Of a stretch of DNA of 55,995 nucleotides, positions 10,331 through 32,322 are shown in pieces (position 1 is the stretch's first letter; the number at the start of each line of letters is the position of its first letter). The translations under genes were made by a program, and so were the position numbers. The DNA is from Patescibacteria group bacterium (GTDB lineage Bacteria; Patescibacteriota; Patescibacteriia; Buchananbacterales; SURF-54). Below the pieces are notes generated by a model. It saw nothing but the letters and a program-made list of their open reading frames with translations, was not told the origin of the DNA and made no database searches. The DNA is taken from assembly GCA_018818885.1 (NCBI GenBank), contig JAHIRB010000035.1, forward strand, positions 1-55,995, given 5' to 3'.

Positions 10331-10819
10331 ATCAAAAAAATTATTTGCGTTATGGGTCCGGGAGGTGGAGCAACGCCAGATGATTTAAAAAATGCTCGTC
10401 AGCTAGGAAATTTGATTGCTGCCAATGGCTGGATTTTGCTTTCCGGTGGTAGAAACGAAGGCGTTATGGATGAAGTGAATAAAGGCGCGAAAGAAAACGA
10501 TGGACTGACCATTGGTATTATGCCTACTTCTGAACTGGATTCAATTTCTGACGCAGTTGATATTCCGATCATAACTGATATGAAAAGTGCGCGTAATACC
10601 ATTAATGTCCTTTCCAGCGATGTGATAGTTGCCTGTGGCATTGGCGCTGGTACTGCCTCTGAAATTGCTCTGGCGCTTAAAGCTAACAAAGATGTAATTT
10701 TATTAAATAATGACGATGAAAGCAAAGCCTTTTTTCAGAAACTGGGAAAAGATAAGATTTATATTGCCGAAAGTCCTGATAGTGTCATAAAAAAGATAAA
10801 GAAATTGATAGGGGAATAG
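10331..10819 (+). CDS. LOG/TIGR00725-like nucleotide-binding protein; start uncertain (ATC 10331 or ATG 10352)
   Basis: GG..GVM...KGA, GLTIGI.P, ARN.INVLSSD, GAGT.SE motifs; upstream in-frame KKIICV completes the first beta-strand. Confidence 0.85.
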   Translation: MKKIICVMGPGGGATPDDLKNARQLGNLIAANGWILLSGGRNEGVMDEVNKGAKENDGLTIGIMPTSELDSISDAVDIPIITDMKSARNTINVLSSDVIVACGIGAGTASEIALALKANKDVILLNNDDESKAFFQKLGKDKIYIAESPDSVIKKIKKLIGE

Positions 10820-10825
10820 ACTAGC

Positions 10826-10854
10826 TTGACAAATAAGAACAAATAAAATATACT
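10826..10854 (+). promoter_or_regulatory. sigma70 promoter of the T-box/GNAT/thrS unit
   Basis: TTGACA-17 nt-TATACT. Confidence 0.8.
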
Positions 10855-10859
10855 AAAAA

Positions 10860-11100
10860 TTACTTAAAAGTAATTGATGTGGCTACCAACCGCATATCCG
10901 CTTGTACAGTGGATTATAGTCAAATTGACTATACTAAGCTTTTAACGACAACCACATTAAAGAAGTGGTCTGGCCATTGTAGGGTCAGGCAAAATGGGTG
11001 GAACCGCGGGCCCCTACTACGCTCTTACGAGCTTCGTAGGGTAGATCAAGCCTCGTCCCAGGGATTGAAAAGTTTTCGATTTTTGAGACGAGGTTTTTTT
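10860..11100 (+). promoter_or_regulatory. T-box riboswitch (Thr)
   Basis: AAAATGGGTGGAACCGCG at 10991-11008; antiterminator partner CGTCCC at 11054-11059 overlaps terminator CCTCGTC/GACGAGG plus T7; thrS lies downstream. Confidence 0.85.
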
Positions 11101-11111
11101 CTAAATCTTTC

Positions 11112-11212
11112 TTGTCATCTCGACCGGTGTTATTGTTTATTCCGTGAGCGGAGAGATCTCACTCCAATTTTATCTGTAGGTGTGAGATCCTTCACTTCGT
11201 TCAGGATGACAA
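11112..11212. repeat. TGTCAT...ATGACA palindromic element, copy 3
   Basis: TTGTCATCTCGACCG...GAGATC...CAGGATGACAA. Confidence 0.88.
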
Positions 11213-11790: not shown

Positions 11791-13528
11791 CAAACTTGAT
11801 GCCATGCGCCATTCAGCATCACACATAATGGCTTTGGCAGTAAAAAGCTTATTTGCCAAGGATGGCAAGGTTAAATTCGGCATCGGACCGACGATTGAAG
11901 ACGGTTTTTACTATGATTTTGAATTGCATCGACCATTGGTACTTCAAGACTTGCTTAAGATAGAAAAATTAATGAAAAATCTTATTAGTCAAAATTTGGG
12001 ATTCAAACAGGAAAAGGTAAGTGTTGCAGATGCAAAAATAATGTTTAAAGATCAGCCATACAAACTTGAATTGATTTCTGACTTGGCAAAAGATGGAGAA
12101 AAAAACGTTAGCATATACTTTAGTGGTGATTTTATGGATCTTTGTGCTGGCCCCCATGTCAAATCATCAAAAGAAATAAAGGCATTCAAGTTAACCAAGA
12201 TTGCTGGTGCCTATTGGAGGGGCGATGAAAAAAATACTCAATTACAGAGAATCTATGGTGTAGCTTTTGAAAACGAAAATAAACTTAATGAATATTTAGA
12301 ACGTCAAAAACAAGCTGAAGAACGAGATCATAGAAAAATCGGTACTGATTTAGATTTGTTTAGTGTGTCAGAGCAGTTTGGTGCAGGTTTGATACTTTGG
12401 CATCCAAATGGTGCATTGATTCGTCAGCAGATCGAAAAATTTGTCTTAGGTGAATATCAGAGCAAAGGATATCAGCTAGTGATGACACCCCATATAGCTA
12501 ATTTAAATTTGTTTAAAACTTCCGGGCACTGGAATTTTTATCGTGAAGGTATGTATTCACCAATGGATATCGATAACGAACAGTATGTAACTAAGCCAAT
12601 GAATTGCCCGGGACATGTTTTAATTTACAAAACTAAGCAAAGAAGCTATCGTGAACTGCCAATTAGATATACCGAGCTAGGCACTGTTTATAGATACGAA
12701 AGATCAGGCACATTGCACGGATTAACTCGCGTTAGGGGATTCACACAAGATGATGCTCATATAATTTGTACACCAAAACAGTTAGAGCCAGAATTAGTTG
12801 ATGTGATTAAATTGACCAAATTTATACTTGAAACTTTTGGTTTTAAGGATTTTGATGTTAATTTGTCAGTACGTGATCCAAAGAATAAGAAAAAATATTT
12901 AGGTAATGATAAGCAATGGGAGTTGGCAGAAAAAGCATTGGCTAATTCAATTAAAAAAGTCGGTTGGAAACACAAAATCGACGAAGGCGAAGCAGTATTT
13001 TATGGCCCTAAGATGGATATTAAAGTTAAAGATACAATAGGCCGTGAATGGCAGATTTCAACATTACAAGTTGATTTCAACTTACCAGAAAGATTTAAGA
13101 TGGAATATATAGACGAGAAAGGCAAGAAAACACAGCCGTTCATGTTGCATCGCGCATTGTTGGGTTCTGTGGAAAGATTTATGGGAGTATTAATAGAACA
13201 TTATGCTGGAGCGTTTCCAGTTTGGTTATCGCCAGTTCAAGTTCAAATTATTCCTGTTGGAGCTGATTTTGTAAAATTGTCAAATGAACTTGCAGATGAA
13301 CTAAAATCAAATGGAATAAGAGTATTTGTAGATGATCTTAACGAAACTGTAGGAAATAAAATAAGAAAAGCAGAAAAGCAAAAAGTACCGTACATGTTAG
13401 TGATGGGAGAGAAAGAAGCTAAGAGTAAGGATTTGAATGTTCGGGTGAGGGGAGTTAAAGAAGTCAAAACTATTAGTAAGTCAAAATTTATTAAAGATAT
13501 ATTAGAGCAGATAGAAAAGAGAAAATAA
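11774..13528 (+). CDS. thrS: threonine--tRNA ligase (short form without TGS domain)
   Basis: RHSASH, DLCAGPH, GAYWRGD, RDHRKIG, KPMNCP, AVFYGPK. Confidence 0.97.
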   Translation: MEKENNKLDAMRHSASHIMALAVKSLFAKDGKVKFGIGPTIEDGFYYDFELHRPLVLQDLLKIEKLMKNLISQNLGFKQEKVSVADAKIMFKDQPYKLELISDLAKDGEKNVSIYFSGDFMDLCAGPHVKSSKEIKAFKLTKIAGAYWRGDEKNTQLQRIYGVAFENENKLNEYLERQKQAEERDHRKIGTDLDLFSVSEQFGAGLILWHPNGALIRQQIEKFVLGEYQSKGYQLVMTPHIANLNLFKTSGHWNFYREGMYSPMDIDNEQYVTKPMNCPGHVLIYKTKQRSYRELPIRYTELGTVYRYERSGTLHGLTRVRGFTQDDAHIICTPKQLEPELVDVIKLTKFILETFGFKDFDVNLSVRDPKNKKKYLGNDKQWELAEKALANSIKKVGWKHKIDEGEAVFYGPKMDIKVKDTIGREWQISTLQVDFNLPERFKMEYIDEKGKKTQPFMLHRALLGSVERFMGVLIEHYAGAFPVWLSPVQVQIIPVGADFVKLSNELADELKSNGIRVFVDDLNETVGNKIRKAEKQKVPYMLVMGEKEAKSKDLNVRVRGVKEVKTISKSKFIKDILEQIEKRK

Positions 13529-16548: not shown

Positions 16549-17469
16549 ATGAATAAAAAGTCAAATAAAAAAGTAATAGTCATTTTAGGTCCAACAGCAT
16601 CTGGTAAAACAAAACTGGCTGTTAAATTAGCCAGCAAGTTTAATGGTGAAATAATTTCCGCAGATTCACGGCAAGTTTATGTTGATATGGATATTGGAAC
16701 AGGAAAAGATTTAGCAGAATATATAGTCAAGGTACAAGGTACAAGGTACAAGGTACCATATCATTTAATTGATGTCGTTTCGCCTAAATCTCAGTTTACG
16801 GTAGGTGTGTATCAAAAATTAGCCAACATAGCTATCCAGGATGTCATAAAACGTCAAAAATTGCCCATTATATGCGGTGGAACTGCTTTTTATATTCAGT
16901 CAATAGTAGATGGTATTGTATTGCCTCCTAAGACTTCAAGTCAGTTACGTCAAAAATTGAATAAGCTGACATTGAAGCAGCTATTAGTTAAATTGAAAAA
17001 ACTTGACTCAGCATCATATCGTCAAATAGACAAAAAGAACAGAAGGCGAGTGCAGCGTGCAGTTGAGGTGTGCTTGTATACAAGTGAAAAATTTTCATCA
17101 TTTGGCCAAAAACAAAAAATAGACTATGAGTTTTTGATCTTAGGATTAACTTGGCCAAGAGAAGTTTTGAAAAAAAGAAGCACCAAGAGACTAAAAGTCA
17201 GGCTTGAAAAAGAAGGTATGATCAATGAGGTTAAAAGATTGCATAAACAAGGAGTCAGTTGGAAAAGAATGGATGAGTTTGGCTTGGAATATCGCTGGGT
17301 TTCTAGATATCTTCAAAAGAAAATCACATATGACGAAATGTTTGAAGGTTTGAATAATGATATTAATAATTTTGCTAAAAGGCAGATGACGTGGTTTAAA
17401 AAAGATAAGAGGATTAAGTGGGTGAAGAATTATAAATCAGCAAAAAAATTAGTAAAGGAATTTTTATAG
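16549..17469 (+). CDS. miaA: tRNA dimethylallyltransferase
   Basis: GPTASGKT, IISADSRQVY, GGTAFY, AKRQMTWF. Confidence 0.97.
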   Translation: MNKKSNKKVIVILGPTASGKTKLAVKLASKFNGEIISADSRQVYVDMDIGTGKDLAEYIVKVQGTRYKVPYHLIDVVSPKSQFTVGVYQKLANIAIQDVIKRQKLPIICGGTAFYIQSIVDGIVLPPKTSSQLRQKLNKLTLKQLLVKLKKLDSASYRQIDKKNRRRVQRAVEVCLYTSEKFSSFGQKQKIDYEFLILGLTWPREVLKKRSTKRLKVRLEKEGMINEVKRLHKQGVSWKRMDEFGLEYRWVSRYLQKKITYDEMFEGLNNDINNFAKRQMTWFKKDKRIKWVKNYKSAKKLVKEFL

Positions 17470-18276
17470 CGGGCTTTTAATTTTTTTAAGCCGAGGATTG
17501 GTTACCTGTGTATATATTTGAGTGGTTCTGATATTTTGATGGCCAAGCAATTCCTGTACGTAGCGCACGTCAACGCCGTTTTCCAACAGGTGAGTGGCAA
17601 AACTATGGCGCAAACTGTGAAAGGTCGCGTTTTTTTTGATGTTTGCTTTTTTTAACGAATTAGCAAACACTTTTTGTGCGGTTCTTTCTGTAAGTTTGCC
17701 CCCACGCTCACTTGAAAAGATATAGTCATTTTTATCTTTTCCAGCAATAAGATTTTGAAGGTCAATTTTTAATTTTTCAGGCATAATGGTAATTCTGTCC
17801 TTTTTTCCCTTAGCTTGCCTGATGTGAATTGTTAGCTCCAAAAGGTCAAGATCTTGTATCTTAAGATTGATAATTTCGCTTACCCTTAAGCCTGATCCAT
17901 AAGCTAAAGATAAAAGCAGTTTATGTTTGTTATTAGTTGTAACTTCAATAATTTTTTTAATTTCATTTCTTGATAAAACAACAGGCAAGAATTTATTTCT
18001 CTTAGCTATTCTTATCTGAATTGGGGTGAAGGATTTGGCGACGTCACGATAATAAAATTTAATCGCATTCAAATAAAGATTCCGCGTCTGGACCGAGATA
18101 GCCTTTTCTTCAGCATAAAGCAGGAAGTTTTTGATATTTTCCTCATCTAATTTTTCTAAGCCACTTTGCTTAAAGGTAAAATATTCTTTTAAGCCATAAA
18201 CATAGCTTTTTATGGTTTTTTGGCTAAAATTGCGTATTTTTAATTCACGCTTTACTTTCTCTAGTTCTTTTTGCAT
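17464..18276 (-). CDS. IntI-like tyrosine recombinase lacking the IntI-specific insertion
   Basis: N-terminal SAM-like domain (RNFSQKTIKSY); catalytic R (GLRVSE), K (KGKKDR), HSLRH, LGH, Y (TTQIY); C-terminal SPL; 3' end overlaps miaA by 6 nt. Confidence 0.93.
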   Translation of the reverse strand: MQKELEKVKRELKIRNFSQKTIKSYVYGLKEYFTFKQSGLEKLDEENIKNFLLYAEEKAISVQTRNLYLNAIKFYYRDVAKSFTPIQIRIAKRNKFLPVVLSRNEIKKIIEVTTNNKHKLLLSLAYGSGLRVSEIINLKIQDLDLLELTIHIRQAKGKKDRITIMPEKLKIDLQNLIAGKDKNDYIFSSERGGKLTERTAQKVFANSLKKANIKKNATFHSLRHSFATHLLENGVDVRYVQELLGHQNIRTTQIYTQVTNPRLKKIKSPL

Positions 18277-18321: not shown

Positions 18322-18350
18322 ACCTTATCATAAGTTCGCATAACATACAA
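18322..18350 (-). promoter_or_regulatory. candidate Pint integrase promoter
   Basis: minus strand TTGTAT-17-TAAGGT with TGn extension. Confidence 0.4.
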
Positions 18351-18373
18351 TATTACGGTTATTATACGAAAAC

Positions 18374-18402
18374 ACTTCGTATAATAACGAGTTATATGAA
18401 AT
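18374..18402 (+). other. attI-like primary recombination site
   Basis: ACTTCGTATAA-TAACGAG-TTATATGAAAT (11-7-11, arms 9/11 symmetric); GTTATATGA matches TCATATAAC at the end of cassette 1; crossover inferred at G18391|T. Confidence 0.8.
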
Positions 18403-19587: not shown

Positions 19588-19608
19588 AAAATTTTGATAA
19601 ATTACATC

Positions 19609-20526
19609 ATATAACACGGCATAGCCGGTTCGCTCGCTAAATAAAATCATTTTTTTACCACTCATATATGAAAGACGTTATACAATTCATAAAACCGAGA
19701 ATCGTGAAGGTCACTTGCCCAGGTCTCGATTCAAAAGGAACAGGGTTTCTAATATCAGAGGATGGTCACATAGCGACAAATTTCCACGTTATTGGGCAAG
19801 TTGACCAAAACGGACGCGTCAATTATGCAAAACAAATTATTGTCTCAAATTCTATTATTGAAGATGTAGAAGCCAATATTGTTCACAATGTTAAGGATAC
19901 CGCGTCCGTTTTGCACGATTACTCTATAATTAAAATCGACAAAAATGGCCTAGATTATTTTGAGTTAGGTGAAGGAGCAGATGTAGAAGAGGGAGATGAA
20001 GTTTACTTTGGTGGATTCCCAATAACTCAAAATAATCTCACCTCTCATAAAGGGCATGTATCTTCATTACGTGAAGCACCAACGCGTTTTGGTACTGATC
20101 TTCAAAAAGTTATTGATATTGACGGTACCGTTGTTGGCGGTAATTCAGGTGGCCCTTTATTATTCAAAAAGGACGGCAAACACTTAGTCGTTGGAATCAT
20201 TAGTCAACAAGTAGCATACTTATCAGAGGCCTTTCAACATCTAGAGCAATTTCTAAAAGTACAGATGACAAATCCAAATTCAGGAGGTGTTTTTATTGGT
20301 GGGGTTAATCCAAATGCCGCCCTTTTTGAAACTATCAAAACGCTTAAAACTAACTTATCTACCGGTATCGGAACGGCCATTTTTGTCGATTATATGAAGA
20401 CGGAATTTGAGGAAATAAAAAAATGATTTTATTTTTAACGCTCGCTCACCCAAATTTGGCAGTGGTGGGTCGCGTTTGCTCCCAATTTTACCACTGCCAA
20501 ACTTCGGCTATGCCGAAACGTTGTGC
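19609..20526 (+). other. attC-like site 1 (918 bp, carries a gene)
   Basis: ATATAAC-A-CGGCATAGCCG ... CGGCTATGCCG-AAAC-GTTGTGC. Confidence 0.85.
19668..20426 (+). CDS. trypsin-like serine protease inside attC1
   Basis: GTGF, TNFHV (His), DYS (Asp), GGNSGGP (Ser). Confidence 0.9.
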   Translation: MKDVIQFIKPRIVKVTCPGLDSKGTGFLISEDGHIATNFHVIGQVDQNGRVNYAKQIIVSNSIIEDVEANIVHNVKDTASVLHDYSIIKIDKNGLDYFELGEGADVEEGDEVYFGGFPITQNNLTSHKGHVSSLREAPTRFGTDLQKVIDIDGTVVGGNSGGPLLFKKDGKHLVVGIISQQVAYLSEAFQHLEQFLKVQMTNPNSGGVFIGGVNPNAALFETIKTLKTNLSTGIGTAIFVDYMKTEFEEIKK

Positions 20527-20558
20527 GAAATTCGCCAGCAATTTAACTAATAAAACAG

Positions 20559-21068
20559 ATGTCGGAAATTTTTGAAATTAAAGAAAGCGGCAGTTTGGGC
20601 CGAGGATTATTCGCCACAAAGCTAATAAAAAAAGGCGAGAAAATTTTAGAATTCACGGGTCCAATTATCTCTATCAAGGAGGCACTGCAAAAACCACCAG
20701 AAAAATTATCATGCCCTTTGCAAATCGGGCCGACCGAATATATAGACATACAAGAACCTGGCGTTTTAGCTAATCATTCTTGCTCGCCAAATGCTGGCGT
20801 AAAAAATGATCATTACCTTGTGGCTATCCAAGACATCTTACCTGGCAATGAAATTTTTTATGATTATTCAACGACAATGGATGAAGATAATTGGACCCTA
20901 GAATGTAAATGCGGAAGCCCAAACTGCCGCCACATCATAGGAGATTTCCGACATCTTCCGATCGAAGTTCAAAAAAAATATTTAGAATTAAATATAGTCC
21001 AGTCCTTTATTGCGAAAAAATTGCTGGCGAACATCGCACAACACGGCATATCCGGCTCAGAAAATTGA
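20559..21068 (+). CDS. cassette 2: SET-domain protein with post-SET motif
   Basis: GRGLFA, ANHSCSPN, EIFYDY, CKCGSPNCR. Confidence 0.92.
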   Translation: MSEIFEIKESGSLGRGLFATKLIKKGEKILEFTGPIISIKEALQKPPEKLSCPLQIGPTEYIDIQEPGVLANHSCSPNAGVKNDHYLVAIQDILPGNEIFYDYSTTMDEDNWTLECKCGSPNCRHIIGDFRHLPIEVQKKYLELNIVQSFIAKKLLANIAQHGISGSEN

Positions 21069-21164
21069 CACAATTAAATTTAAAAGGGGTGTCAATTTTC
21101 TTCGACCCAAATTTTTGTTCCGCTACGCTACACAAAACCTTCGGATAATGCCGATACGTTATAC
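21036..21164 (+). other. attC-like site 2
   Basis: GCACAAC-A-CGGCATATCCG ... CGGATAATGCCG-ATAC-GTTATAC. Confidence 0.85.
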
Positions 21165-21229
21165 GACATTGCCCTTCGCCCGCCTAGAATGTAAACTTTT
21201 ATATATTTAGCAAATCTTTTCAAATTATT

Positions 21230-22081: not shown

Positions 22082-22144
22082 ACGGCGGGCTACGGGCAAC
22101 GCTTCGGGGACGCTGCGCTTTCGTCGCTATCGCTCCTCACCCTC

Positions 22145-22240
22145 GTATAACAAGGATTATGAGGAAAATGGCTCAGCTCGCCATTTTCCCAAATTTGCTC
22201 CACTGCGTTCCGCAAACTTCTCATAATCCTGACGTTATCG
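22145..22240 (+). other. attC-like site 3 (shortest, 96 bp)
   Basis: GTATAAC-A-AGGATTATGAG ... CTCATAATCCT-GAC-GTTATCG. Confidence 0.88.
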
Positions 22241-22259
22241 GAAATAATTTTAGGCTCTT

Positions 22260-22694: not shown

Positions 22695-22711
22695 TCGCCT
22701 AAAATTACATC

Positions 22712-22851
22712 CGATAACAGCGTGTATGAGGTTCAAAAAAAGTGCGTTAATAATACCTAAAGGCTGCACTTTTTCTTTCACCCAAATTTCGCCTCCTATA
22801 TAATTAAAATAAGGAAGTCGGCGAAACTTCTCATACACGCAAACGTTAGGC
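22712..22851 (+). other. attC-like site 4
   Basis: CGATAAC-A-GCGTGTATGAG ... CTCATACACGC-AAAC-GTTAGGC. Confidence 0.9.
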
Positions 22852-22879
22852 GAAATAAGATTTAAACAAAAATTATTTT

Positions 22880-23149: not shown

Positions 23150-23190
23150 TTTTTGTTTAAATCTTACTCTCCGCTCCGCCCTATCGGGTC

Positions 23191-23733
23191 GCCTAACACG
23201 GGCTAGCCGGTTCGCAGTATGCACTTTGAAACAAACATTTTTAGGAAGCTGCCCAAATCAACCAAAGGAGGCCTACTATGATTTTGGGATTAACAAAAGA
23301 AGATTTAGAGAAACCAACAATTACAGAGGTAGAAGAAGTTCGCGTACATGACGGAAGGGGGGGTGCTGCCACAGTACGAGTCGGCGATCAAGTTGAAGTT
23401 TTCAAACCAGAAGAAAATAAATTGACTCTGGCCTATCTCGGCCCCGGGCCATACACTATTGAATGGACGGCGCAATGGAGATGTGGCCGAGATTTCCTTC
23501 AACTGACAACGCCGACAAAAGGTAAGGGCAAAGGCGTTAACGCTTCCAAATTTCAAATCGTCTCATAGTTTCATTATGGACGCACAAAAACGGGAAGGCA
23601 TACTTTCGCCTTCCCGCTTCCTAAAAATGTTTGTTTATTTATCACGCTCACCCAAATCCCACACCTATTTTAGTAAATTTCAAATAATAGCACAAAATAT
23701 GTGAGGGACTTCGGCTAGCCCGAAACGTTATGT
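23191..23733 (+). other. attC-like site 5 (543 bp, carries a gene)
   Basis: GCCTAAC-A-CGGGCTAGCCG ... CGGCTAGCCCG-AAAC-GTTATGT. Confidence 0.88.
23278..23568 (+). CDS. hypothetical protein inside attC5
   Basis: AAGGAGG SD; enclosed by a perfect 21-bp IR (23229-23249/23616-23636). Confidence 0.8.
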   Translation: MILGLTKEDLEKPTITEVEEVRVHDGRGGAATVRVGDQVEVFKPEENKLTLAYLGPGPYTIEWTAQWRCGRDFLQLTTPTKGKGKGVNASKFQIVS

Positions 23734-23770
23734 GAAATTTATTTTTGTTTTTATCTAATAAACACGTAAT

Positions 23771-24202: not shown

Positions 24203-24207
24203 ACATC

Positions 24208-24337
24208 ACATAACAAAGAGTATGCGGTTCAGGAATTTTTCATTTATAATTTAATAAGGAGTAAAAAATTCCTTCACCCAAATTTTTTGTTCCGCTATCG
24301 CTACACAAAAAACTTCGCATACTCTTAAACGTTATGT
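24208..24337 (+). other. attC-like site 6
   Basis: ACATAAC-A-AAGAGTATGCG ... CGCATACTCTT-AAAC-GTTATGT. Confidence 0.9.
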
Positions 24338-24435
24338 GAAATATTGACTAGATTATTCTGGCATAAAATGTTTTTGCCGATAAAAAAGTCAGTGCGATTT
24401 TAAAACTGATAATCAAATAATTCCGTCAATACATC
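24332..24435 (+). other. cassette 7 body: no ORF
   Basis: ~100 bp between TTATGTGA and TCACATAA, bounded by TATTGAC/GTCAATA. Confidence 0.8.
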
Positions 24436-24585
24436 ACATAACACTGTGTATCTGGTTCCGTAAAAGAGAAAAATTAAATAATTCTCTATTTTTAAAAAGC
24501 CCTTTTTCAATTTTTTTTGACAAAGAAAAAACCGCCTCAACCTTTGTGGTATATTGGCGGTAAGCAGTCGGTCTGCTCAGTCCTT

Positions 24586-24762
24586 TTACTTTGTGCGAAA
24601 GAGCGGGCAAATCAGGTCGTGAAATTCTTTCAGTGATTCGTTCAACATGGTATGCCAAACGAATATTCCAACCTCGCGCTCTTTCAAAAGAGCAACCAAC
24701 TTTTCCGCCCTTTCCTGCAACGCGTCATGCGTAAGTTCTGTTTTTTGCTCGTTTTCAGCCAT
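24586..24762 (-). CDS. 58-aa hypothetical protein inside attC7 (below the ORF-track cutoff)
   Basis: MAENEQKTELTHDALQERAEKLVALLKEREVGIFVWHTMLNESLKEFHDLICPLFRTK; GAAAGGAG SD, own promoter, terminator ACCGCC/GGCGGT. Confidence 0.75.
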   Translation of the reverse strand: MAENEQKTELTHDALQERAEKLVALLKEREVGIFVWHTMLNESLKEFHDLICPLFRTK

Positions 24763-24820
24763 TTCTACTTCTCCTTTCAGGTTAGTTGGTAATATTTAAT
24801 ACCAAATTTGGTATCGTTGC

Positions 24821-24849
24821 ATTGTAGCAGAAAACTGTCCCTCTGTCAA
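24821..24849 (-). promoter_or_regulatory. promoter of antisense module in attC7
   Basis: TTGACA-17-TACAAT with TGn extension. Confidence 0.85.
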
Positions 24850-25033
24850 GTCCAGCGACCAAAAAAAATTGAAAAAGGGCTTTAATAAGGTAAATTATTT
24901 AATTTTTCTTTTTTACTCCACCCAAATTTTTGCCTTTCCTTTCTTTTAGAATATAATAAGGAAGAAAGGCAAAAACTTCAGATACACAGAAACGTTAGGC
25001 GAAATTAATTTATTAACCTTTAATCAAAATCAT

Positions 25034-25249: not shown

Positions 25250-25270
25250 ACGGTTAATAAATTAACTATC

Positions 25271-25411
25271 GCCTAACAGCGTGTATGAGGTTCAAGAAAA
25301 AGTGCGTTAATAATTTTCAGCGGTTGCACTTTTTCTTTCACCCAAATTTCGCCTCCTCTATAATGAAAATAAGGAAGTCGGCGAAACTTCTCATACACGC
25401 AAACGTTATGT
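25271..25411 (+). other. attC-like site 8 (near-copy of site 4)
   Basis: GCCTAAC-A-GCGTGTATGAG ... CTCATACACGC-AAAC-GTTATGT. Confidence 0.9.
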
Positions 25412-25523
25412 GAAATAGCCAGAAATTTTTTTATTATTTTTTAGATTTTTTTTGGCAATTTATTTCGGTCGAACATAGCTTGTGATATAATTTAATCAGC
25501 TTAATAATTTAACCAATAAAATT

Positions 25524-25802: not shown

Positions 25803-25846
25803 ATTGCCAAAAAATACATTAAGGAAAAGAAATTTCTGTCTACATC

Positions 25847-26350
25847 ACATAACATGTTGTATCTGGCTACGCTAAATAATAATTTATTTTCTCTACTTAT
25901 ATGGGTATCAAAGTTGAATTTAACCCCGACCTCGCTTTAAGGAATATTTCCGAATTTAAAAACGGTAATCGTAAAATTGAAGAATGTATTCCTGAAAGCC
26001 TTGAGGAAGGCAAAACATATCCGTTTTTAAAATGCGATCAACGTAATTACTGGCTTTATGGTGCAATACCTTTAATCGAAACCAAAGGCAATGAGATTTT
26101 ATCACGTCCTAAGGCTAAAATTATTCTGCTGGAAGCCACGCACTTTGCTGTTGATAACGTAACGTATACTAAAGGCTTTTACAAAGTAATTGAGGTCTTT
26201 AAGGATGACGATATACATTTTGAATGTTTTGATCCGGTGGGAACGAGAAAATAAATTATTATTTAGCTCCGCCCAAATTTCTTCTTCTTTTTTATTATTA
26301 ATTTAATAATGAAGCGAAGAAGAAACTTCAGATACAACAAAACGTTATGT
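25847..26350 (+). other. attC-like site 9 (504 bp, carries a gene)
   Basis: ACATAAC-A-TGTTGTATCTG ... CAGATACAACA-AAAC-GTTATGT. Confidence 0.88.
25901..26254 (+). CDS. hypothetical protein inside attC9
   Basis: 117-aa ORF enclosed by a perfect 23-bp IR (25871-25893/26245-26267). Confidence 0.8.
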   Translation: MGIKVEFNPDLALRNISEFKNGNRKIEECIPESLEEGKTYPFLKCDQRNYWLYGAIPLIETKGNEILSRPKAKIILLEATHFAVDNVTYTKGFYKVIEVFKDDDIHFECFDPVGTRK

Positions 26351-26383
26351 GAAAAACAATAAATTCATAATAACATATAAATA

Positions 26384-27034: not shown

Positions 27035-27100
27035 ATTTATTGTTCTTCGCCTAACACGGGTTAGCCGGTTCACGCTGGCTAAATAAAATTATTCAATATT

Positions 27101-27676
27101 ATGAAAACTATTATAAAATTAATAAATCTAGCGGCCCTACTTGGGTCAGTTGCATGGCTATCCAAAGATACTAATTGGGAACCATTACTATTATTTCTTG
27201 CCTTATTAGCCGCATTCTTAGGGCAGGAAATCTTACCAACAATTAAAAAAGTGAACAAAGAAGACAAAAAGCTAGGAGAATTATTTCTTAAAGAATTCCC
27301 CTCAAACGGTAAAAGTTGCTTATTTTTAAAAGAACATGAGCTACACAATCCATTCCGCCAATCACAACTTGATGAAATTGAAAAATTCTTAAGTGAATGG
27401 GATAACACCGAACATGAGTTCTTAAATAAAAAATTAGAAAGAATAAAAAAAGAACTACTCTCTAAAATTAATAAATTTTTATCTTCGTTGTTTACTTTGG
27501 TAAGAGCCCATGATAGTGATGTTAATATATTAACAACCAAGCTAAGCGGGGCGTACAATAAAGAGGTAGAAGAAGAAAATGATTTAAAAATAGCTGGACT
27601 AAACAAAATGGCAACTGATATATATAAAAAACATCAAATACTAACAAAAAAGATAAAAAGAATCTTAAATTCTTAG
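27101..27676 (+). CDS. N-terminally membrane-anchored hypothetical protein inside attC10
   Basis: 191 aa, two N-terminal hydrophobic segments; 20-bp IR 27081-27100/27679-27698. Confidence 0.8.
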   Translation: MKTIIKLINLAALLGSVAWLSKDTNWEPLLLFLALLAAFLGQEILPTIKKVNKEDKKLGELFLKEFPSNGKSCLFLKEHELHNPFRQSQLDEIEKFLSEWDNTEHEFLNKKLERIKKELLSKINKFLSSLFTLVRAHDSDVNILTTKLSGAYNKEVEEENDLKIAGLNKMATDIYKKHQILTKKIKRILNS

Positions 27677-27729
27677 CTAATATTGAATAATTTTATTTTT
27701 AACGCTTGCTAATAAAATAATTTAAAAAT

Positions 27730-28023
27730 ATGGAAAATCAAATATTTAAAAAATTTACCTTATGGGATTCAGTAGTTTTACTGGTTTTAATACTTATTGC
27801 TATACCATCAATACTTGGAGTATTAGAAGCTGTAACTGGTCAAGACTATTATCAAATGACGGTTTATCTTTTTATATCGGCTATAATCTTGTTTGGAATT
27901 TTCAAATATTCAAAAAAGTTGGTGAGCAATATAAAAAATGCAGAAACTAAAAAAAGAGCAACTATAATATCAGCAGTATTGATAATCATTACCCTGCTAT
28001 TCTTTTTCAGACTATTTTTTTAA
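27730..28023 (+). CDS. 3-TM hypothetical protein inside attC10
   Basis: 97 aa; 18-bp IR 27711-27728/28017-28034. Confidence 0.75.
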   Translation: MENQIFKKFTLWDSVVLLVLILIAIPSILGVLEAVTGQDYYQMTVYLFISAIILFGIFKYSKKLVSNIKNAETKKRATIISAVLIIITLLFFFRLFF

Positions 28024-28217
28024 ATTATTTTATTTAACGCGCTCACCCAAATCCCGCCATGGGCGGGACTTCGGCTAACCCGAAACGTTAGGTAACATTT
28101 TATTCAAAATCTTTTAAATTTAATAATAGAGCCCTTTTGAAATTTTTTAAGAAAAAAGAAAGGGCTCCGCTCACTATTTTTAGTGGGGAGCCCTGATGAG
28201 CGGAGGACGCACGACAG

Positions 28218-28655
28218 TCACTTGAGGCGCGAGACTGCCTCGACGCCACTCATAGTTCTGCCAGTGGCGCAATCCATCACGAAGCTGCCGACTGACGACC
28301 CCGCCTTGATCATGGCGAGCCACTGGTCGTAGGTCGCCGTCGCGTACGGTCCGGCCGAGGCCTTGTTGTCGGCGAGCCAGCGTGCGAGCGCTTCGGGCGT
28401 TTCCATCACAGGCGAGATTGGTGTCCCTTCCGTGACGGACTCATACATCTGGTAGTGCGTGCGTTCCGACTCCGGCCACTGCGGCATGACGTCGCATCCG
28501 TAGTTCGGCGGGTCGTTGTTGAGCCAGCCGTCACGTAGTCCCTCCACAATCTCTTCCTCGTCGTACGGGAAGTGCTCGTGCATGGGGATGTGGTGGCCGT
28601 TCTCGTCCTTGGGGTGTTCCCAGTTTGCGGGAACTCTGCGAGCTTCTGTACTCAT
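28218..28655 (-). CDS. cassette 11: antisense, GC-rich hypothetical protein
   Basis: 145 aa; GAGGAGG SD; 42/60 and 38/60 G+C in two lines counted; GGGCTCC/GGAGCCC terminator. Confidence 0.85.
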   Translation of the reverse strand: MSTEARRVPANWEHPKDENGHHIPMHEHFPYDEEEIVEGLRDGWLNNDPPNYGCDVMPQWPESERTHYQMYESVTEGTPISPVMETPEALARWLADNKASAGPYATATYDQWLAMIKAGSSVGSFVMDCATGRTMSGVEAVSRLK

Positions 28656-28746: not shown

Positions 28747-28807
28747 GCTCGCGACCAAAAAAATTTCAAAAAGGCTCTAATAATAAGGTATTTTTGAATA
28801 AAACATC

Positions 28808-29253
28808 ACCTAACACCTGCTATCTGACTCCGCCTTTCGATAAATAATTTTTAACCACTTAATATGGAAACTTTAGAAAACTTTATAGAAAAACTTGACG
28901 AAAAAACTGAGATTGAAATAGCAAACTTTTTAAATGCAAGCCAAGATTCAAAAAGAGATTCAATAAAAGCTATTTTAGATTCTAGAATTATAAAAAATTT
29001 ACAGCAACTAACTAAAACAATCGAAGAAAATAACATAAAAACAGAAAACTATAATACTACACTAACTAAACTTACAAAATGGATTTTTATATTTACAGTT
29101 GTGATGACTATTGCAACAATAATCAGTTTATTCAAAGGTTAAAAATTATTTATCGGGCGTCGCGCAAATTGCTCATTCGCTTACGTGATGACCTCCAGTT
29201 AATTATATCACGACGCGAATTTCGCAACTTCAGATAGCAGGGTAACGTTATGT
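28808..29253 (+). other. attC-like site 11 (446 bp, carries a gene)
   Basis: ACCTAAC-A-CCTGCTATCTG ... CAGATAGCAGG-GTAAC-GTTATGT. Confidence 0.82.
28864..29142 (+). CDS. coiled-coil protein with C-terminal TM, inside attC11
   Basis: 92 aa; perfect 19-bp IR 28838-28856/29137-29155. Confidence 0.78.
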   Translation: METLENFIEKLDEKTEIEIANFLNASQDSKRDSIKAILDSRIIKNLQQLTKTIEENNIKTENYNTTLTKLTKWIFIFTVVMTIATIISLFKG

Positions 29254-29307
29254 GATGTTTGGCTTTTACTTAGTACAATTAATAATTTATAATTTAATAA
29301 AACCATT

Positions 29308-29469: not shown

Positions 29470-29481
29470 AAGCCGAACATC

Positions 29482-29678
29482 ACATAACAGCGTGTATCTG
29501 GTTACGGAAAATTGGCGTTAATTAAATCCTTAAGGAATGCCAATTTTCCTCCGCCCAAATTTTCATCCCTTTACAAGATGAGGATTTGGGTGGGGTTCTG
29601 TTAAAAAGTGTCGTCTGATAATCAAAATTTAACCTATTTAATCGGGATGAAAACTTCAGATACACGCGAACGTTATAT
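29482..29678 (+). other. attC-like site 12
   Basis: ACATAAC-A-GCGTGTATCTG ... CAGATACACGC-GAAC-GTTATAT. Confidence 0.88.
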
Positions 29679-29698
29679 GAAATAATAATTTTATTTTT

Positions 29699-30169: not shown

Positions 30170-30251
30170 AATTATTACATCGTATAACACGGCGTATACG
30201 ACATTTGTTTATCCACTAAAACCCGGGGGAGTCGTTCGCGAACGGCTTCTC

Positions 30252-30300
30252 TTGACAAAAATAATCAGGCTGATATAATTGTAATACAATGTATTACAAT
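30252..30300 (+). promoter_or_regulatory. TA promoter and operator
   Basis: TTGACA-16-TGnTATAAT followed by palindrome ATTGTAATACA-A-TGTATTACAAT (30278-30300). Confidence 0.85.
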
Positions 30301-30312
30301 TAATCTATTTCT

Positions 30313-30528
30313 ATGAGACAAGTAATTAACATCTCCTTACCTAAACAAACAGCCCATGAAGTCAAATCTGCCGTTAAAAGAGGCAATTATCTCAGCGTCA
30401 GTGAGTTTTTTCGTGATTTATTAAGAGATTGGCAGGCAGGTAATCTTCTTAATGAATTAAACCAAAGTAGAAAAGAAATTAAAGCGGGCAAGGGCAAAAC
30501 CTTAAAATCCTTAAAGGATTTAAGGTAA
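30313..30528 (+). CDS. ribbon-helix-helix antitoxin (ParD/CopG-like)
   Basis: VINISLP...G.Y.SVSEFFRDLLR; upstream of RelE-like toxin. Confidence 0.85.
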   Translation: MRQVINISLPKQTAHEVKSAVKRGNYLSVSEFFRDLLRDWQAGNLLNELNQSRKEIKAGKGKTLKSLKDLR

Positions 30529-30534
30529 TTTTTT

Positions 30535-30792
30535 ATGGAAATTATTTATTCCTCAAAGTTTGCCCGTGAATATAAGAAACTGCCAAAAAAAGTAAAGGCA
30601 ACGGCGGAAGAGCACGAAACAATATTCAGACAGAACCCCCGAGATCCAAGATTAAACACGCACAAACTTCATGGCAGACTTAAAGAATTCTGGTCTTTTT
30701 CAATCGGGAACAAATACCGAATTATTTTTGAATTTGGCAATGACACTACAATTTGCTTGCATTTAGTCGGCAATCATGATATTTACCAATAA
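30535..30792 (+). CDS. RelE-superfamily mRNA interferase toxin (YafQ/YoeB-like)
   Basis: YSSKFAREYKKL, HKLHGRLKEFWSFSI, YRIIF, VGNHDIY. Confidence 0.9.
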   Translation: MEIIYSSKFAREYKKLPKKVKATAEEHETIFRQNPRDPRLNTHKLHGRLKEFWSFSIGNKYRIIFEFGNDTTICLHLVGNHDIYQ

Positions 30793-30908
30793 ACAAACGT
30801 CGCATACGCTGGAACGTTAGGCGAACTTTATATGATCCTGATGTTATGCAATTACATAATTTAACACGAAAAAAGAATTTTTAGAATGTAGATTATAATC
30901 TAGAAATT

Positions 30909-31373
30909 ATGAGCAAAAATAATATGAAAAGTATTATCTTCCCCAAGGTTAAAGAGTGGTTTTTAAGATACATACTCGCAGAAATAGTAGCCATCATAGG
31001 TGCTATGGTGGGAGGTCTATTAGCATATTACTTTTTTAACAACCTTGTTGCTACTGCTCTCGGTGGAACTTGGGGCGAAAATATTGGTTATTATGGACAA
31101 ATAATATATAGTGATTTAAAAAAGAGCAAACAAAAAGACGGAAAAATTACATTTATTATTGTTCTTAAACTTATAAGAAACGCCATTATAGAATTTGGGC
31201 CAGGGGAGTATCTTGATAGCTTTCTTATTCGTCCTATTACCATGTATTTTTTTATAAGCGTAGTTGGTAGTCTTCCTGTTGGGTTATTCCTTGGCAAAAT
31301 AAGTGCTGATGTCATTTTTTATATACCTACAATTACTGCATACGAGTTTCAAAAAAAATACATTAAAGATTAA
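30909..31373 (+). CDS. membrane protein, hypothetical, outside the last attC
   Basis: 154-aa hydrophobic ORF; no downstream R'' site found. Confidence 0.75.
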   Translation: MSKNNMKSIIFPKVKEWFLRYILAEIVAIIGAMVGGLLAYYFFNNLVATALGGTWGENIGYYGQIIYSDLKKSKQKDGKITFIIVLKLIRNAIIEFGPGEYLDSFLIRPITMYFFISVVGSLPVGLFLGKISADVIFYIPTITAYEFQKKYIKD

Positions 31374-31454
31374 TATTTTTTTGTTATTTAGGAACTCCGA
31401 ATCGGAATCTCGCGTAAGCGTATATGCTAGATCCTAAATTTAATTCAGAATTAC

Positions 31455-31487
31455 AAAAAAAAGGCGAGGCGTGGAAGCCTCGTCTTT
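31455..31487. terminator. terminator between convergent gene blocks
   Basis: A8-GGCGAGGC-GTGGAA-GCCTCGTC-TTT. Confidence 0.75.
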
Positions 31488-31509
31488 AAGGTTTTATTAA
31501 TTTGTATTA

Positions 31510-32322
31510 CTATCTATATTTATTTATTTCATCTCTAAGTTTTTTTGCTTTTTCTGCCGCATTTTCAGCAAACTTTTCGTCTGAACCAGCATAAATTATT
31601 CCACGAGCGGAATGAACAATCAAACCCTGTCCATTCGAATCTTTTCCATTATCCATAACTGCTTTAACATCACCACCTTGTGCGCCTATACCAGGAAGCA
31701 GTATCGGCATGTCACCAATAATTTTTCTAATTTCTTTTAGTTCTTTTGGGTACGTTGCACCAACTACAACAAGTAAGTTTTTGTTTTTATTCCATTCATT
31801 AGCTACTTTTTCTGCCACTATCTGGTAGATTTTTTTCCCTTCTACTTCTAAGTCTTGTAAGTCTTTAGCTCCTGGGTTAGAAGTTCTGCATAATACAATT
31901 ACTCCCTTGTCTTTGTAATCAGTAAATGGTTCTAAAGTATCGCCACCCATATATGGGTTTACGGTTACTGCGTCTGCACTTAATATTTCGAAAGCTTGTT
32001 TAGCATACATTTTTGCAGTGTTGCCAATATCGTTACGTTTGGCATCCAATATTACCGGCATATCGGGGTAGTTTTGTTTTACGTAGTTGATGCTTTCTTT
32101 AAGCTGGTCAATAGTGTCGGAACCAGCATACATGGCGTATTGGAATTTGAAAGATGAAGCAAAGTCAACAGTTGCGTCAATAATTGTTTTGTTAAATTCA
32201 AACGCTGCTTTTTCGTGAGTTTTTAGGTGTTCTGGGATTTTTTCAAGATCTGTATCCAAACCTACACAAACTAGTGAGTTTTTTTTATCCCAGGATGCTT
32301 TTAAATTTTTTATGAAAGTCAT
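31510..32322 (-). CDS. pyrF: orotidine-5'-phosphate decarboxylase
   Basis: CVGLD, ILDAKRNDIGNT, TVNPYMG, PGIGAQGG. Confidence 0.95.
   Translation of the reverse strand: MTFIKNLKASWDKKNSLVCVGLDTDLEKIPEHLKTHEKAAFEFNKTIIDATVDFASSFKFQYAMYAGSDTIDQLKESINYVKQNYPDMPVILDAKRNDIGNTAKMYAKQAFEILSADAVTVNPYMGGDTLEPFTDYKDKGVIVLCRTSNPGAKDLQDLEVEGKKIYQIVAEKVANEWNKNKNLLVVVGATYPKELKEIRKIIGDMPILLPGIGAQGGDVKAVMDNGKDSNGQGLIVHSARGIIYAGSDEKFAENAAEKAKKLRDEINKYR

What the first reader, a model, noticed from the sequence alone, without database searches (positions are those of the whole stretch)
24203..24342. Recombination arms are XerD-like 11-mers, so the array can also be read as alternating pdif-like modules
R' arms read TTATGTGAAAT (23728, 24332, 25406), 10/11 identical to the E. 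coli XerD arm TTATGTTAAAT. Left halves have dif geometry, e.g. ACATCACATAA-CAAAGA-GTATGCGGTTC (11-6-11). Right halves are mostly 11-9-11 (ACTTCGCATAC-TCTTAAACG-TTATGTGAAAT). Genes alternate between R-flanked and L-flanked positions, as C- and D-type pdif modules do. This would link Xer/dif modules and attC cassettes mechanistically.
Basis: partly seen in the sequence, partly recalled or inferred. Interest (0 to 1): 0.8.

Follow-up and report, generated by a model that had tools for sequence, protein, structure and literature searches.

The report
Xer-like arms in integron-type sites
The recombination sites of this gene-cassette array in a tiny-genome (Patescibacteria) bacterium do have Xer/dif-type 11-base arms, because the neighbouring recombinase is a Xer-type enzyme, but the evidence says the sites act as folded hairpins as in integrons, not as plasmid "pdif" modules.

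Summary
TTATGTGAAAT stands at 23728, 24332 and 25406, and 24203-24342 parses as 11-6-11 and 11-9-11.

The likeness to XerD arms holds for the whole family:
- In 34 sites from 15 genomes the R' arm is TTatg.gAAAT.
- XerD arms of three phyla score in the top 0.05-0.1% of genome 11-mers on its matrix.
- attI is a dif-like 11-7-11 core.
- The adjacent 270-aa recombinase is XerA/IntI-like and lacks about 43 residues where IntI carries its extra domain.

The pdif reading is not supported:
- R'' of each site pairs with the previous R' (113/117 pairs; 0 of 100,000 permutations).
- L stems differ between sites but stay complementary.
- Half-site spacers are unequal (6 versus mostly 9).
- An RH half-site with inverted interior occurs in 0 of 401 genomes, against 64 normal ones.
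- Cargo genes lie inside an inner hairpin, not against the L arms.

Best reading: one dif-like core folded from single-stranded DNA, as in integron attC or phage CTX attP. The half-site geometry follows from that fold.

R-flanked and L-flanked units do alternate (7 of 13 sites hold genes) and reassort between genomes. Exchange on both strands is therefore not excluded.

The parts
17464..18276 (-). Tyrosine recombinase, 270 aa, XerA/IntI-like, without the IntI extra domain, divergent from the array
   Evidence: NF040815 at 225 bits (cut-off 220). TIGR02249 at 223 bits (cut-off 265), in two stretches. Against VchIntIA (2a3v), residues 178-194 stand where IntI has 182-241. Against XerA (5hxy) there is one continuous stretch.
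18333..18402 (+). attI region. An upstream arm-like site (AGTTCGCATAAC, 18333-18344) and the core ACTTCGTATAA (18374-18384) - TAACGAG (18385-18391) - TTATATGAAAT (18392-18402).
   Evidence: Conserved in about 25 related loci up to ...AACGAG, variable after TT. The arms are 9/11 inverted repeats. Arm identity is 9+8 of 22 positions' worth to B. subtilis dif (17/22) and 7+9 to E. coli dif (16/22).
24203..24230 (+). Left half (LH) of site 6: R'' arm ACATCACATAA, spacer CAAAGA, L'' arm GTATGCGGTTC
   Evidence: R'' pairs 9/9 with the preceding R' at 23727.
24231..24311 (+). Interior of site 6: inner hairpin A, conserved TCACCCAAAT (CACCCAAAT at 24275-24283), inner hairpin B
   Evidence: Predicted three-way junction on both strands. 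Motif positions.
24312..24342 (+). Right half (RH) of site 6: L' arm ACTTCGCATAC, spacer TCTTAAACG, R' arm TTATGTGAAAT. Inferred crossover between G 24331 and T 24332.
   Evidence: Crossover polarity.
19604..20531 (+). Site 1, holds a 252-aa trypsin-like gene between L'' and L'
21031..21169 (+). Site 2, short
22140..22245 (+). Site 3, short; near-identical site in locus L004
22707..22856 (+). Site 4, short; interior near-identical to site 8 but with other R boxes
23186..23738 (+). Site 5, holds a 96-aa gene. The same arms hold unrelated genes in four other genomes.
24431..25005 (+). Site 7, holds a small minus-strand gene. The R-flanked segment before it (24332-24442) has no gene.
25266..25416 (+). 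Site 8, short
25842..26355 (+). Site 9, holds a 117-aa gene. A 73.5% identical gene sits in the same slot in locus L121.
27044..28098 (+). Site 10, holds two genes (191 and 97 aa)
28803..29258 (+). Site 11, holds a 92-aa gene. Its R' reads GTTATGTGATGT.
29477..29683 (+). Site 12, no gene; long inner hairpin B with an inverted copy of the CCCAAAT motif
30177..30827 (+). Site 13, the last one; holds two adjacent small genes (71 and 85 aa) that read as an antitoxin-toxin pair (not profile-tested here)

Best explanation
The array at 18.3-30.8 kb is an integron-type cassette platform run by a Xer-type tyrosine recombinase that lacks the IntI extra domain.

The enzyme is a Xer relative, so its binding sites are Xer-type 11-mers of the form A-Y-W-T-C-N-N-A-T-A-A, with cleavage inferred at the border between arm and central region.

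Each cassette site is an imperfect palindrome. On single-stranded DNA, or as a cruciform, R'' pairs with R' and L'' pairs with L'. Together they build one dif-like core: two arm duplexes around a 6-bp central region, with a 3-nt bulge on the R' side. Each half read as a duplex therefore looks like arm-spacer-arm, 11-6-11 on the left and 11-9-11 on the right. That geometry is a by-product of the fold, not a second kind of site.

Cassettes enter at the double-stranded, dif-like attI by an exchange at G|TT of R'. The junction is probably resolved by replication, as for integron attC x attI and for CTX phage attP(+) x dif.

Genes found between L'' and L' sit in the loop of an inner hairpin of the site and travel with it.

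Shown here: site anatomy, covariation, crossover polarity, arm logos, absence of the IntI domain, absence of inverted forms.
Inferred: single-stranded substrate, bottom-strand choice, exact cleavage bond, replicative resolution.
For: - R''(n) pairs with R'(n-1) in 113/117 positions, against 95/117 with its own R'. At the six variable positions it is 74/78 against 56/78. Permuted partners give a mean of 56.6 and a maximum of 72; 0 of 100,000 reach 74.
- There are 31 distinct L stems. Nine of 11 positions show three or four Watson-Crick pair types. Pairing is 93.5%, against 49.7% (maximum 62.5%) with shuffled partners.
- DNA folds give a three-way junction with z-scores from -4.4 to -7.9. The bottom strand is always the more stable, for example -29.0 against -24.0 kcal/mol for 24203-24342.
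- attI is conserved up to ...AACGAG and variable after TT in about 25 loci.
- Arm logos from 34 sites: R' GTTatg.gAAAT, R'' acatC.catAAC, L' AACtTC..aTA.
- XerD arms score in the top 5-10 x 10^-4 of genome 11-mers on the R' matrix.
- Recombinase: XerA model above its cut-off, IntI model in two stretches, about 43 aa missing against VchIntIA.
- RH spacer is 9 in 62 of 70 sites, against an LH spacer of 6.
- The normal RH pattern has 64 matches in 48 of 401 genomes; the pattern for an inverted interior has 0 of 401.
- The same L arms hold unrelated cargo in five genomes, bounded by inner repeats.
- Known precedent for a folded site that mimics dif without an I2 domain: CTX phage (PMC4792948, PMC5357621).
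Against:
- Sites in relatives were found by requiring stem complementarity, so the high pairing there is partly by construction. The shuffled-partner control and the 13 window sites, first read out from their flanking motifs, answer this only in part.
- The outer parts of the R' and L' arms are conserved but unpaired. Duplex recognition of RH would explain that as well.
- RH resembles attI in both arms.
- Central regions longer than 8 bp exist in Xer systems (difSL has 11 bp, PMC5357621), so 9 bp alone does not exclude a duplex reaction.
- IntI is thought to need the I2 helix for single-stranded attC. This enzyme lacks it.
Confidence: 0.74

Rival explanations
1. Exchange in two registers, on both strands. 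Without an I2 domain the enzyme does not discriminate between strands. It exchanges on the folded bottom strand (crossover at G|TT of R') and on the folded top strand (crossover at AA|C of R''). R-flanked units (R' arm - gene - R'' arm) and L-flanked units (site interior with or without cargo) would then be two alternating, separately exchangeable classes of module. This is pdif-like in logic but uses folded DNA.
For: - R'' and the reverse complement of R' share one consensus ending ...CATAA|C.
- Both strands fold well.
- Of 80 pairs of sites with the same L'' stem, only 10 (12.5%) share the R'' hexamer, against 5.8% of all pairs.
- A homologous 117-aa cargo (73.5% identity) lies in the same slot in L121, behind an unrelated upstream gene.
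- attI carries an R''-like arm (AGTTCGCATAAC) upstream of its core.
Against: - The array starts with an R-flanked unit right after ...GAG|TT and holds equal numbers of both units. Insertion at G|TT alone explains that.
- The bottom strand is always the more stable.
- Shared site families among unrelated cassettes are usual in chromosomal integrons, so reassortment does not require a second crossover point.
Confidence: 0.15
2. The pdif-like reading of the first reader. The double-stranded halves R''-6-L'' and L'-9-R' are separate Xer-type sites. Host XerC/D-like enzymes or the array's recombinase shuffle R-flanked and L-flanked modules by duplex recombination within the spacers.
For: - LH has 11-6-11 geometry.
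- RH arms are as palindromic as dif: mean 6.4/11, against 6/11 in E. coli dif.
- R' arms resemble XerD arms.
- The genome encodes two further XerC/D-like recombinases.
- The two module classes reassort.
Against: - LH and RH spacers differ in length (6 against 8-10), and four positions vary from site to site. pdif events need identical or nearly identical 6-bp spacers (PMC13141974).
- The arms co-vary in pairs. Duplex binding does not need that.
- L arms keep only TA(t) and G as fixed inner positions.
- 0 of 401 genomes show an inverted interior, against 64 normal sites. Inversions are common in pdif plasmids.
- Cargo ends lie 5-25 nt inside L'' and 45-90 nt inside L'.
- A dedicated recombinase and an attI head the array.
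Confidence: 0.07
3. The likeness to the XerD arm is chance in an AT-rich genome and has no meaning.
For: - Window-wide, 11-mers within 2 mismatches of TTATGTGAAAT occur as often as in shuffles (57 against 57.5).
- Positions 4-7 of the arm vary from cassette to cassette. The 10/11 score of these three copies therefore owes part to luck.
Against: - The fixed positions (TTA, G, AAAT) match the XerD arm in 7 of 8 cases over 34 sites from 15 genomes.
- Background-corrected matrix scores put XerD arms of three phyla in the top 0.05-0.1% of genome 11-mers.
- The attI arms match B. subtilis dif in 17 of 22 positions.
- The enzyme is a Xer relative.
Confidence: 0.03

Closest known systems
Integrons (IntI, attI, attC cassette arrays), especially sedentary chromosomal integrons
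   Same: - Divergent recombinase gene, attI, then a one-way array of mostly promoterless single-gene cassettes.
- Sites are imperfect palindromes R''-L''...L'-R' with AAC/GTT cores.
- R'' matches the start of its own cassette, so exchange is at the R box.
- Site families are shared by unrelated cassettes.
- A likely toxin-antitoxin pair lies in the array.
   Different: - The recombinase lacks the IntI extra domain (I2 region).
- Arms are 11-12 nt with conserved outer bases.
- No extrahelical bases in the L stem; instead a 3-nt bulge beside the R box.
- The site is a three-way junction with a conserved CCCAAAT stretch.
- Whole genes sit inside 7 of 13 sites.
- attI is a plain dif-like 11-7-11 core.
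CTX-phage-type elements that exploit Xer (folded attP(+) x dif1, XerCD)
   Same: - Two inverted dif-like half-sites fold on single-stranded DNA into one Xer site with an imperfect central region.
- The enzyme has no I2-like domain.
- The target is a duplex dif-like site.
- One exchange plus replication is expected (PMC4792948, PMC5357621).
   Different: - This system has its own recombinase gene.
- Many small cassettes are stacked in an array.
- The stems vary and co-vary between cassettes.
- It is not a phage.
pdif / dif modules of Acinetobacter plasmids
   Same: - Two classes of unit alternate, one with XerD-like arms inside and one with the other arms inside.
- The units reassort between genomes.
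- Toxin-antitoxin genes are common cargo.
   Different: - pdif sites are duplex XerC-6-XerD sites with conserved arms, recombined by host XerCD between sites with (nearly) identical spacers, and inversions are frequent (PMC13141974).
- Here the spacers are 6 and 9.
- The arms co-vary.
- No inversions are seen.
- A dedicated recombinase and an attI are present.
Single-recombinase Xer systems (XerA/dif, XerS/difSL, XerH/difH)
   Same: - The enzyme is XerA-like in length and profile.
- Its site has 11-bp inverted arms and lies next to the gene, as for xerS and xerH (PMC5357621).
   Different: - The enzyme is present in only 20 of 41 related genomes, so it is accessory.
- The genome has two more XerC/D-like genes.
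- The site heads a cassette array.
The 'simple site' description of 59-base elements (attC as two pairs of inverted core sites)
   Same: Each half of an attC is a pair of inversely oriented binding sites with a short spacer (as summarised in PMC4618277).
   Different: That duplex picture was replaced by the folded single-strand model for canonical attC (PMC4792948). In the present sites the arms are longer and more Xer-like.

Membership tests
Integron | Tyrosine recombinase gene next to, and divergent from, an array of cassettes, with an attI between them | tested here: met
   ORF 17464-18276 (-); attI at 18333-18402; 13 cassettes on the + strand.
Integron | IntI-specific extra domain near patch III (I2 helix; intI_Cterm) | tested here: not met
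   TIGR02249 at 223 bits, below its 265 cut-off and split in two stretches. About 43 residues are missing against VchIntIA.
Integron | attC: imperfect palindrome R''-L''...L'-R' with RYYYAAC / GTTRRRY cores | tested here: met
   AAC and GTT are invariant in 34 of 34 sites, and the stems are complementary. The R box is often GTTATGT, which departs from RRRY.
Integron | Extrahelical bases in the L box and an unpaired central spacer | tested here: not met
   The 11-bp L stem is continuous. The only unpaired feature is a 1 x 4 loop or 3-nt bulge beside the R box.
Integron | Exchange at the R box, so that R'' matches the first bases of its own cassette | tested here: met
   113/117 pairs with the preceding R'; 0 of 100,000 permutations reach the observed value. 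attI is conserved up to G|TT.
Integron | attC recombined as folded bottom-strand DNA, resolved by replication | not testable with these tools
   Only indirect evidence: covariation, and a more stable bottom-strand fold.
pdif / dif modules | Each site is a duplex XerC arm - 6 bp - XerD arm | tested here: not met
   LH is 11-6-11, but RH is 11-9-11 in 62 of 70 sites. LH arms are only 4.9/11 palindromic on average.
pdif / dif modules | Modules bounded by inversely oriented sites; C and D modules alternate | tested here: inconclusive
   Descriptively met if each half counts as a site. Seven of 13 L-flanked slots hold genes.
pdif / dif modules | [quoted passage not shown] | tested here: not met
   0 of 401 genomes show an inverted interior, against 64 normal RH sites. 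Spacers differ between sites in four positions and between the two halves in length.
pdif / dif modules | Host XerCD acts; the element has no recombinase of its own | tested here: not met
   A dedicated recombinase heads this array and the homologous arrays. Action of the host XerC/D-like proteins could not be tested.
CTX-type elements exploiting Xer | Two inverted dif-like half-sites fold into one Xer site with an imperfect central region | tested here: met
   Fold and arm parse.
CTX-type elements exploiting Xer | Integration at the chromosomal dif by host XerCD | tested here: inconclusive
   attI is dif-like, with 17 of 22 arm positions matching B. subtilis dif. The host's own dif could not be located, and the element has its own enzyme.
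Xer/dif chromosome dimer resolution with a single recombinase | Housekeeping enzyme, present throughout the lineage, with one site at the replication terminus | tested here: not met
   Present in 20 of 41 relatives, and in 17 of 31 good-quality genomes. Gene-strand and AT-skew switches near 31.4 kb only hint at a terminus.

The most novel reading that the evidence does not exclude
A Xer-type recombinase without the strand-selecting I2 domain exchanges on either folded strand, at G|TT of R' and at AA|C of R''. R-flanked gene units and L-flanked units (site interior plus the genes in its loop) would then be two alternating, separately mobile classes of module. The system would be a living intermediate between Xer/dif, CTX-type integration and integrons.
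Probability: 0.15. Interest if true: 0.85.

Novelty: new variant of a known kind. Interest (0 to 1): 0.55.

Why it matters
Integron integrases are held to descend from Xer recombinases, and the I2 domain is seen as the step that allowed single-stranded attC recombination (PMC4792948, PMC7790495). In Cury et al. (PMC4889954), recombinases without that domain found near attC sites were judged not to be IntI.

This system has several features that bear on that view:
- A recombinase without the domain heads a 13-cassette array.
- Its sites keep full Xer-type arms, and its attI is a plain dif-like core.
- The enzyme family has thousands of members in Patescibacteria.
- In my searches of the held library I found no description of it.

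The arm logos and the 11-7-11 attI give concrete substrates for asking how a Xer enzyme came to use folded DNA.

The narrower pdif claim, which was the new part of this finding, does not hold up.

Tried and rejected
- Host dif. Two genome-wide scans for dif-like 11-(6-8)-11 sites gave no convincing site apart from attI. The best other hit, C45:31204 (AATTCTGATAA-TGTTGAT-TTATCGGAATT), lies inside an ORF and away from any skew switch, so I rejected it as chance.
- Rfam scan of 17-32 kb: one weak chance match only.
- L006 against L007 (identical recombinase, different arrays), to map a natural breakpoint. Identity runs about 37 nt past G|TT through a mini-palindrome and then ends. This was not interpretable.
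- Loose regular expressions for normal and inverted half-sites over all loci. Background was too high to be informative. I replaced them with strict patterns over 401 genomes.
- '9 bp is too long for a tyrosine recombinase': dropped as an argument on its own, because difSL has an 11-bp central region (PMC5357621).
- 'This recombinase is the lineage's housekeeping Xer': rejected, because it is absent from about half of the related genomes.
- First site scan in pure Python timed out.

Full report
WHAT IS THERE

The window is one whole contig (C12) of a 1.35-Mb, 34% G+C genome. The closest recombinase relatives carry Patescibacteria/CPR labels.

From 18.3 to 30.8 kb lies a one-way array of 13 cassettes on the + strand. 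It is headed by a divergent 270-aa tyrosine recombinase gene (17464-18276, minus strand) and an attI region.

Each cassette ends in a site with this anatomy on the top strand:
- R'' (consensus acatC.catAAC)
- one A
- an 11-nt L'' stem, then Ggttc
- inner hairpin A
- the conserved stretch TCACCCAAAT
- inner hairpin B
- AACtTC running into the 11-nt L' stem
- AAAC
- R' (GTTatg.gAAAT)

The finding's coordinates, 24203-24342, are site 6, one of the six short sites.

CHECK OF THE OBSERVATION

- TTATGTGAAAT stands at 23728, 24332 and 25406.
- ACATCACATAA-CAAAGA-GTATGCGGTTC is at 24203-24230.
- ACTTCGCATAC-TCTTAAACG-TTATGTGAAAT is at 24312-24342.

The E. coli dif sequence used for comparison was confirmed in the literature (PMC3025954).

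The likeness is not a window-wide property. Eleven-mers within two mismatches occur as often as in shuffled sequence. It is a property of the arms. I collected 34 sites, 13 from the window and 21 from 14 loci fetched through the recombinase.
- Mean identity of R' arms to the XerD arm is 7.9/11, against 3.46 for genome 11-mers.
- On a background-corrected matrix of the R' arms, the XerD arms of E. coli, B. subtilis and Frankia alni score 7-8.2 bits. That is the top 5-10 x 10^-4 of genome 11-mers.

The fixed positions are TTA, G and AAAT. Positions 4-7 change from cassette to cassette, so the 10/11 score of these three copies is partly luck.

The outer bases (GAAAT in R', AACTTC in L', ACATC in R'') are conserved although they do not pair. 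The arms therefore really are 11-12 nt long, not 7-bp cores.

THE RECOMBINASE AND attI

The recombinase passes NCBI's XerA model (225 bits, cut-off 220). It matches the integron-integrase model almost as well (223 bits, cut-off 265), but in two pieces. Against the VchIntIA structure sequence it has 16 residues where IntI has 59. Against XerA it aligns in one piece. It is thus IntI-like in sequence and Xer-like in architecture.

The genome also has two ordinary XerC/D-like genes.

The recombinase family is very large: 7,832 proteins at E <= 1e-20 among the 8,000 candidates scored. It is accessory, being present in 20 of 41 related genomes.

The attI core is ACTTCGTATAA-TAACGAG-TTATATGAAAT.
- Its arms are 9/11 inverted repeats of each other.
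- They match the B. subtilis dif arms in 17 of 22 positions and the E. coli arms in 16 of 22.
- In about 25 related loci the sequence is conserved up to ...AACGAG and becomes variable after TT. This places the crossover at G|TT, as in integrons.

FOLDED SITE OR DUPLEX HALF-SITES

Five lines of evidence bear on this.

1. R'' pairs with the previous R'. R'' of each site pairs with the R' of the previous site in 113/117 positions, against 95/117 with its own R'. At the six variable positions the figures are 74/78 and 56/78. Permuted partners average 56.6, and none of 100,000 permutations reaches 74. R boxes differ between cassettes (TCACATAAC, TCGCCTAAC, TCGCACAAC and others) but always in matched pairs.

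2. L stems vary but stay paired. There are 31 distinct stems in 34 sites, with three or four pair types at nine of 11 positions. They stay 93.5% Watson-Crick with their own partner, against 50% with shuffled partners. Duplex binding sites do not need such compensation; a folded substrate does. One caveat: sites in relatives were found by requiring complementarity. The window's 13 sites were first read out from their flanking motifs.

3. Both strands are predicted to fold. Both strands of the short sites fold into a three-way junction far better than shuffled sequence (z from -4.4 to -7.9). The bottom strand is always the more stable. In that fold the two arm duplexes flank a 6-bp central region with a 3-nt bulge on the R' side. 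This is why the left half reads 11-6-11 and the right half 11-9-11. Over 70 sites the RH spacer is 9 in 62, 10 in 5 and 8 in 3.

4. pdif rules are not met. pdif rearrangements need identical or nearly identical 6-bp spacers and often invert modules (PMC13141974). Here the two halves differ in spacer length, and four spacer positions differ from site to site. In 401 genomes of the class, the normal right-half pattern AACTTC-N3-TA-N5-AAACGTT-N5-AAAT has 64 matches in 48 genomes and none in the reversed-pattern control. The pattern expected after inversion of the interior, starting GAACC, has none. Among 70 sites found without reference to their interior, none is inverted.

5. Cargo is not bounded by the L arms. 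Genes between L'' and L' sit in the loop of inner hairpin A. They start 5-25 nt inside L'' and end 45-90 nt inside L', and they are flanked by their own inverted repeats.

WHAT IS RIGHT IN THE MODULE PICTURE

Seven of 13 window sites hold genes. I found eight more such sites in other genomes of the class.

The same arms (stem CGGGCTAGCCG) hold five unrelated genes in five genomes.

A 117-aa cargo protein recurs at 73.5% identity in the same slot in locus L121. There the upstream gene is unrelated and the stem has diverged.

Sites with the same L'' stem share the R'' hexamer in only 10 of 80 pairs.

So R-flanked units (R' arm - gene - R'' arm) and L-flanked units (site interior, with or without cargo) do alternate and do reassort. 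This is usual for site families in chromosomal integrons. It also leaves room for exchange on both folded strands, at G|TT and at AA|C, which I keep as the most novel reading at about 15%.

COMPARISON WITH WHAT IS KNOWN

- Reading each half of an attC as a pair of inverted binding sites is the old 'simple site' description (PMC4618277).
- The closest mechanistic precedent for a Xer enzyme without I2 acting on a folded site is CTX phage. Two inverted dif-like attP sites fold into one XerCD substrate, one strand is exchanged, and replication resolves the junction (PMC5357621; PMC4792948).
- Escudero et al. already discuss this as a possible origin of integrons.
- New here is a stand-alone cassette platform of that kind, with its own I2-less recombinase. 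I did not find it described. One recent paper notes that most contigs encoding 'integron-type' recombinases have no recognisable attC (PMC13323075).
- Earlier notes of this scan on other genomes reach the same general picture. They are leads, not evidence.

VERDICT

The Xer-type arms and the dif-like geometry are real and follow from the enzyme's ancestry and from the fold. The pdif-type duplex module mechanism is not supported.

Confidence in the folded, integron/CTX-like mechanism is about 0.74. It rests on sequence evidence only. The strand used, the bond cleaved and the mode of resolution are inferred.

Noticed in passing
window 19604-20531, 23186-23738, 24431-25005, 25842-26355, 27044-28098, 28803-29258, 30177-30827; loci L111, L121, L122, L125, L126, L135, L136, L137: Whole genes lie inside the recombination sites, in the loop of inner hairpin A. 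This holds for 7 of 13 window sites and at least 8 sites in other genomes. The same arms (stem CGGGCTAGCCG) hold five unrelated genes in five genomes.
   Followed up: partly
window 19628-19650, 20428-20446, 27068-27090, 27683-27720, 28025-28043; L111, L125: Cargo units share inner borders. On the left, GTTC-GC(G/T)(A/C)GC then TAAATAAAAT. On the right, ATTTTATTT(TT)AA then C/GCTCGC-TCACCC. Site 10 holds two such units in tandem. This looks like a second, simpler palindromic junction inside the site.
   Followed up: no
window 25860-26280 versus L121 (reverse complement) 1039-1468: A homologous 117-aa cargo gene (73.5% identity) lies in the same slot in another genome. There the upstream cassette gene is unrelated and the L stems differ in 5 of 11 positions with compensation.
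   Followed up: yes
window 28218-28655 (minus strand): The gene of cassette 11 is on the minus strand and is visibly G+C-rich in a 34% G+C genome. This suggests a foreign origin.
   Followed up: no
window about 31373-31510: Genes switch from the + to the - strand and AT skew changes sign just beyond the array. The array may lie near the replication terminus. GC skew is less clear.
   Followed up: partly
window 29552-29592: Inner hairpin B of site 12 holds an inverted copy of the conserved CCCAAAT motif (CACCCAAAT on the minus strand at 29584-29592), which can pair with the site's own motif.
   Followed up: no
L006 and L007 (reverse complement), 10811-11100: Two genomes with an identical recombinase protein and identical attI have different arrays. 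Both start with the same 37-nt mini-palindrome TTAGCCAACA-N-TGTTGGCTAA after G|TT. The first full sites end in ...CACATTATGTG, with A in place of the usual G before TT.
   Followed up: partly
L027 (reverse complement) 11000-11135 and 12663-12798: A second type of site (TTTCGTGCTAAC-G-TCCGCAACTAC ... TTAGTTGCGGA-C-GTTA...) reads alike on both strands. It occurs in the same array as the usual sites.
   Followed up: no
window 22707-22856 and 25266-25416: Sites 4 and 8 have nearly identical interiors and L stems but different R boxes on both sides, and different genes before and after.
   Followed up: partly
genome contig C45 31204-31232: AATTCTGATAA-TGTTGAT-TTATCGGAATT has arms that are 10/11 palindromic and resembles attI. 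It lies inside a 327-aa ORF and away from any skew switch, so it is probably chance.
   Followed up: yes
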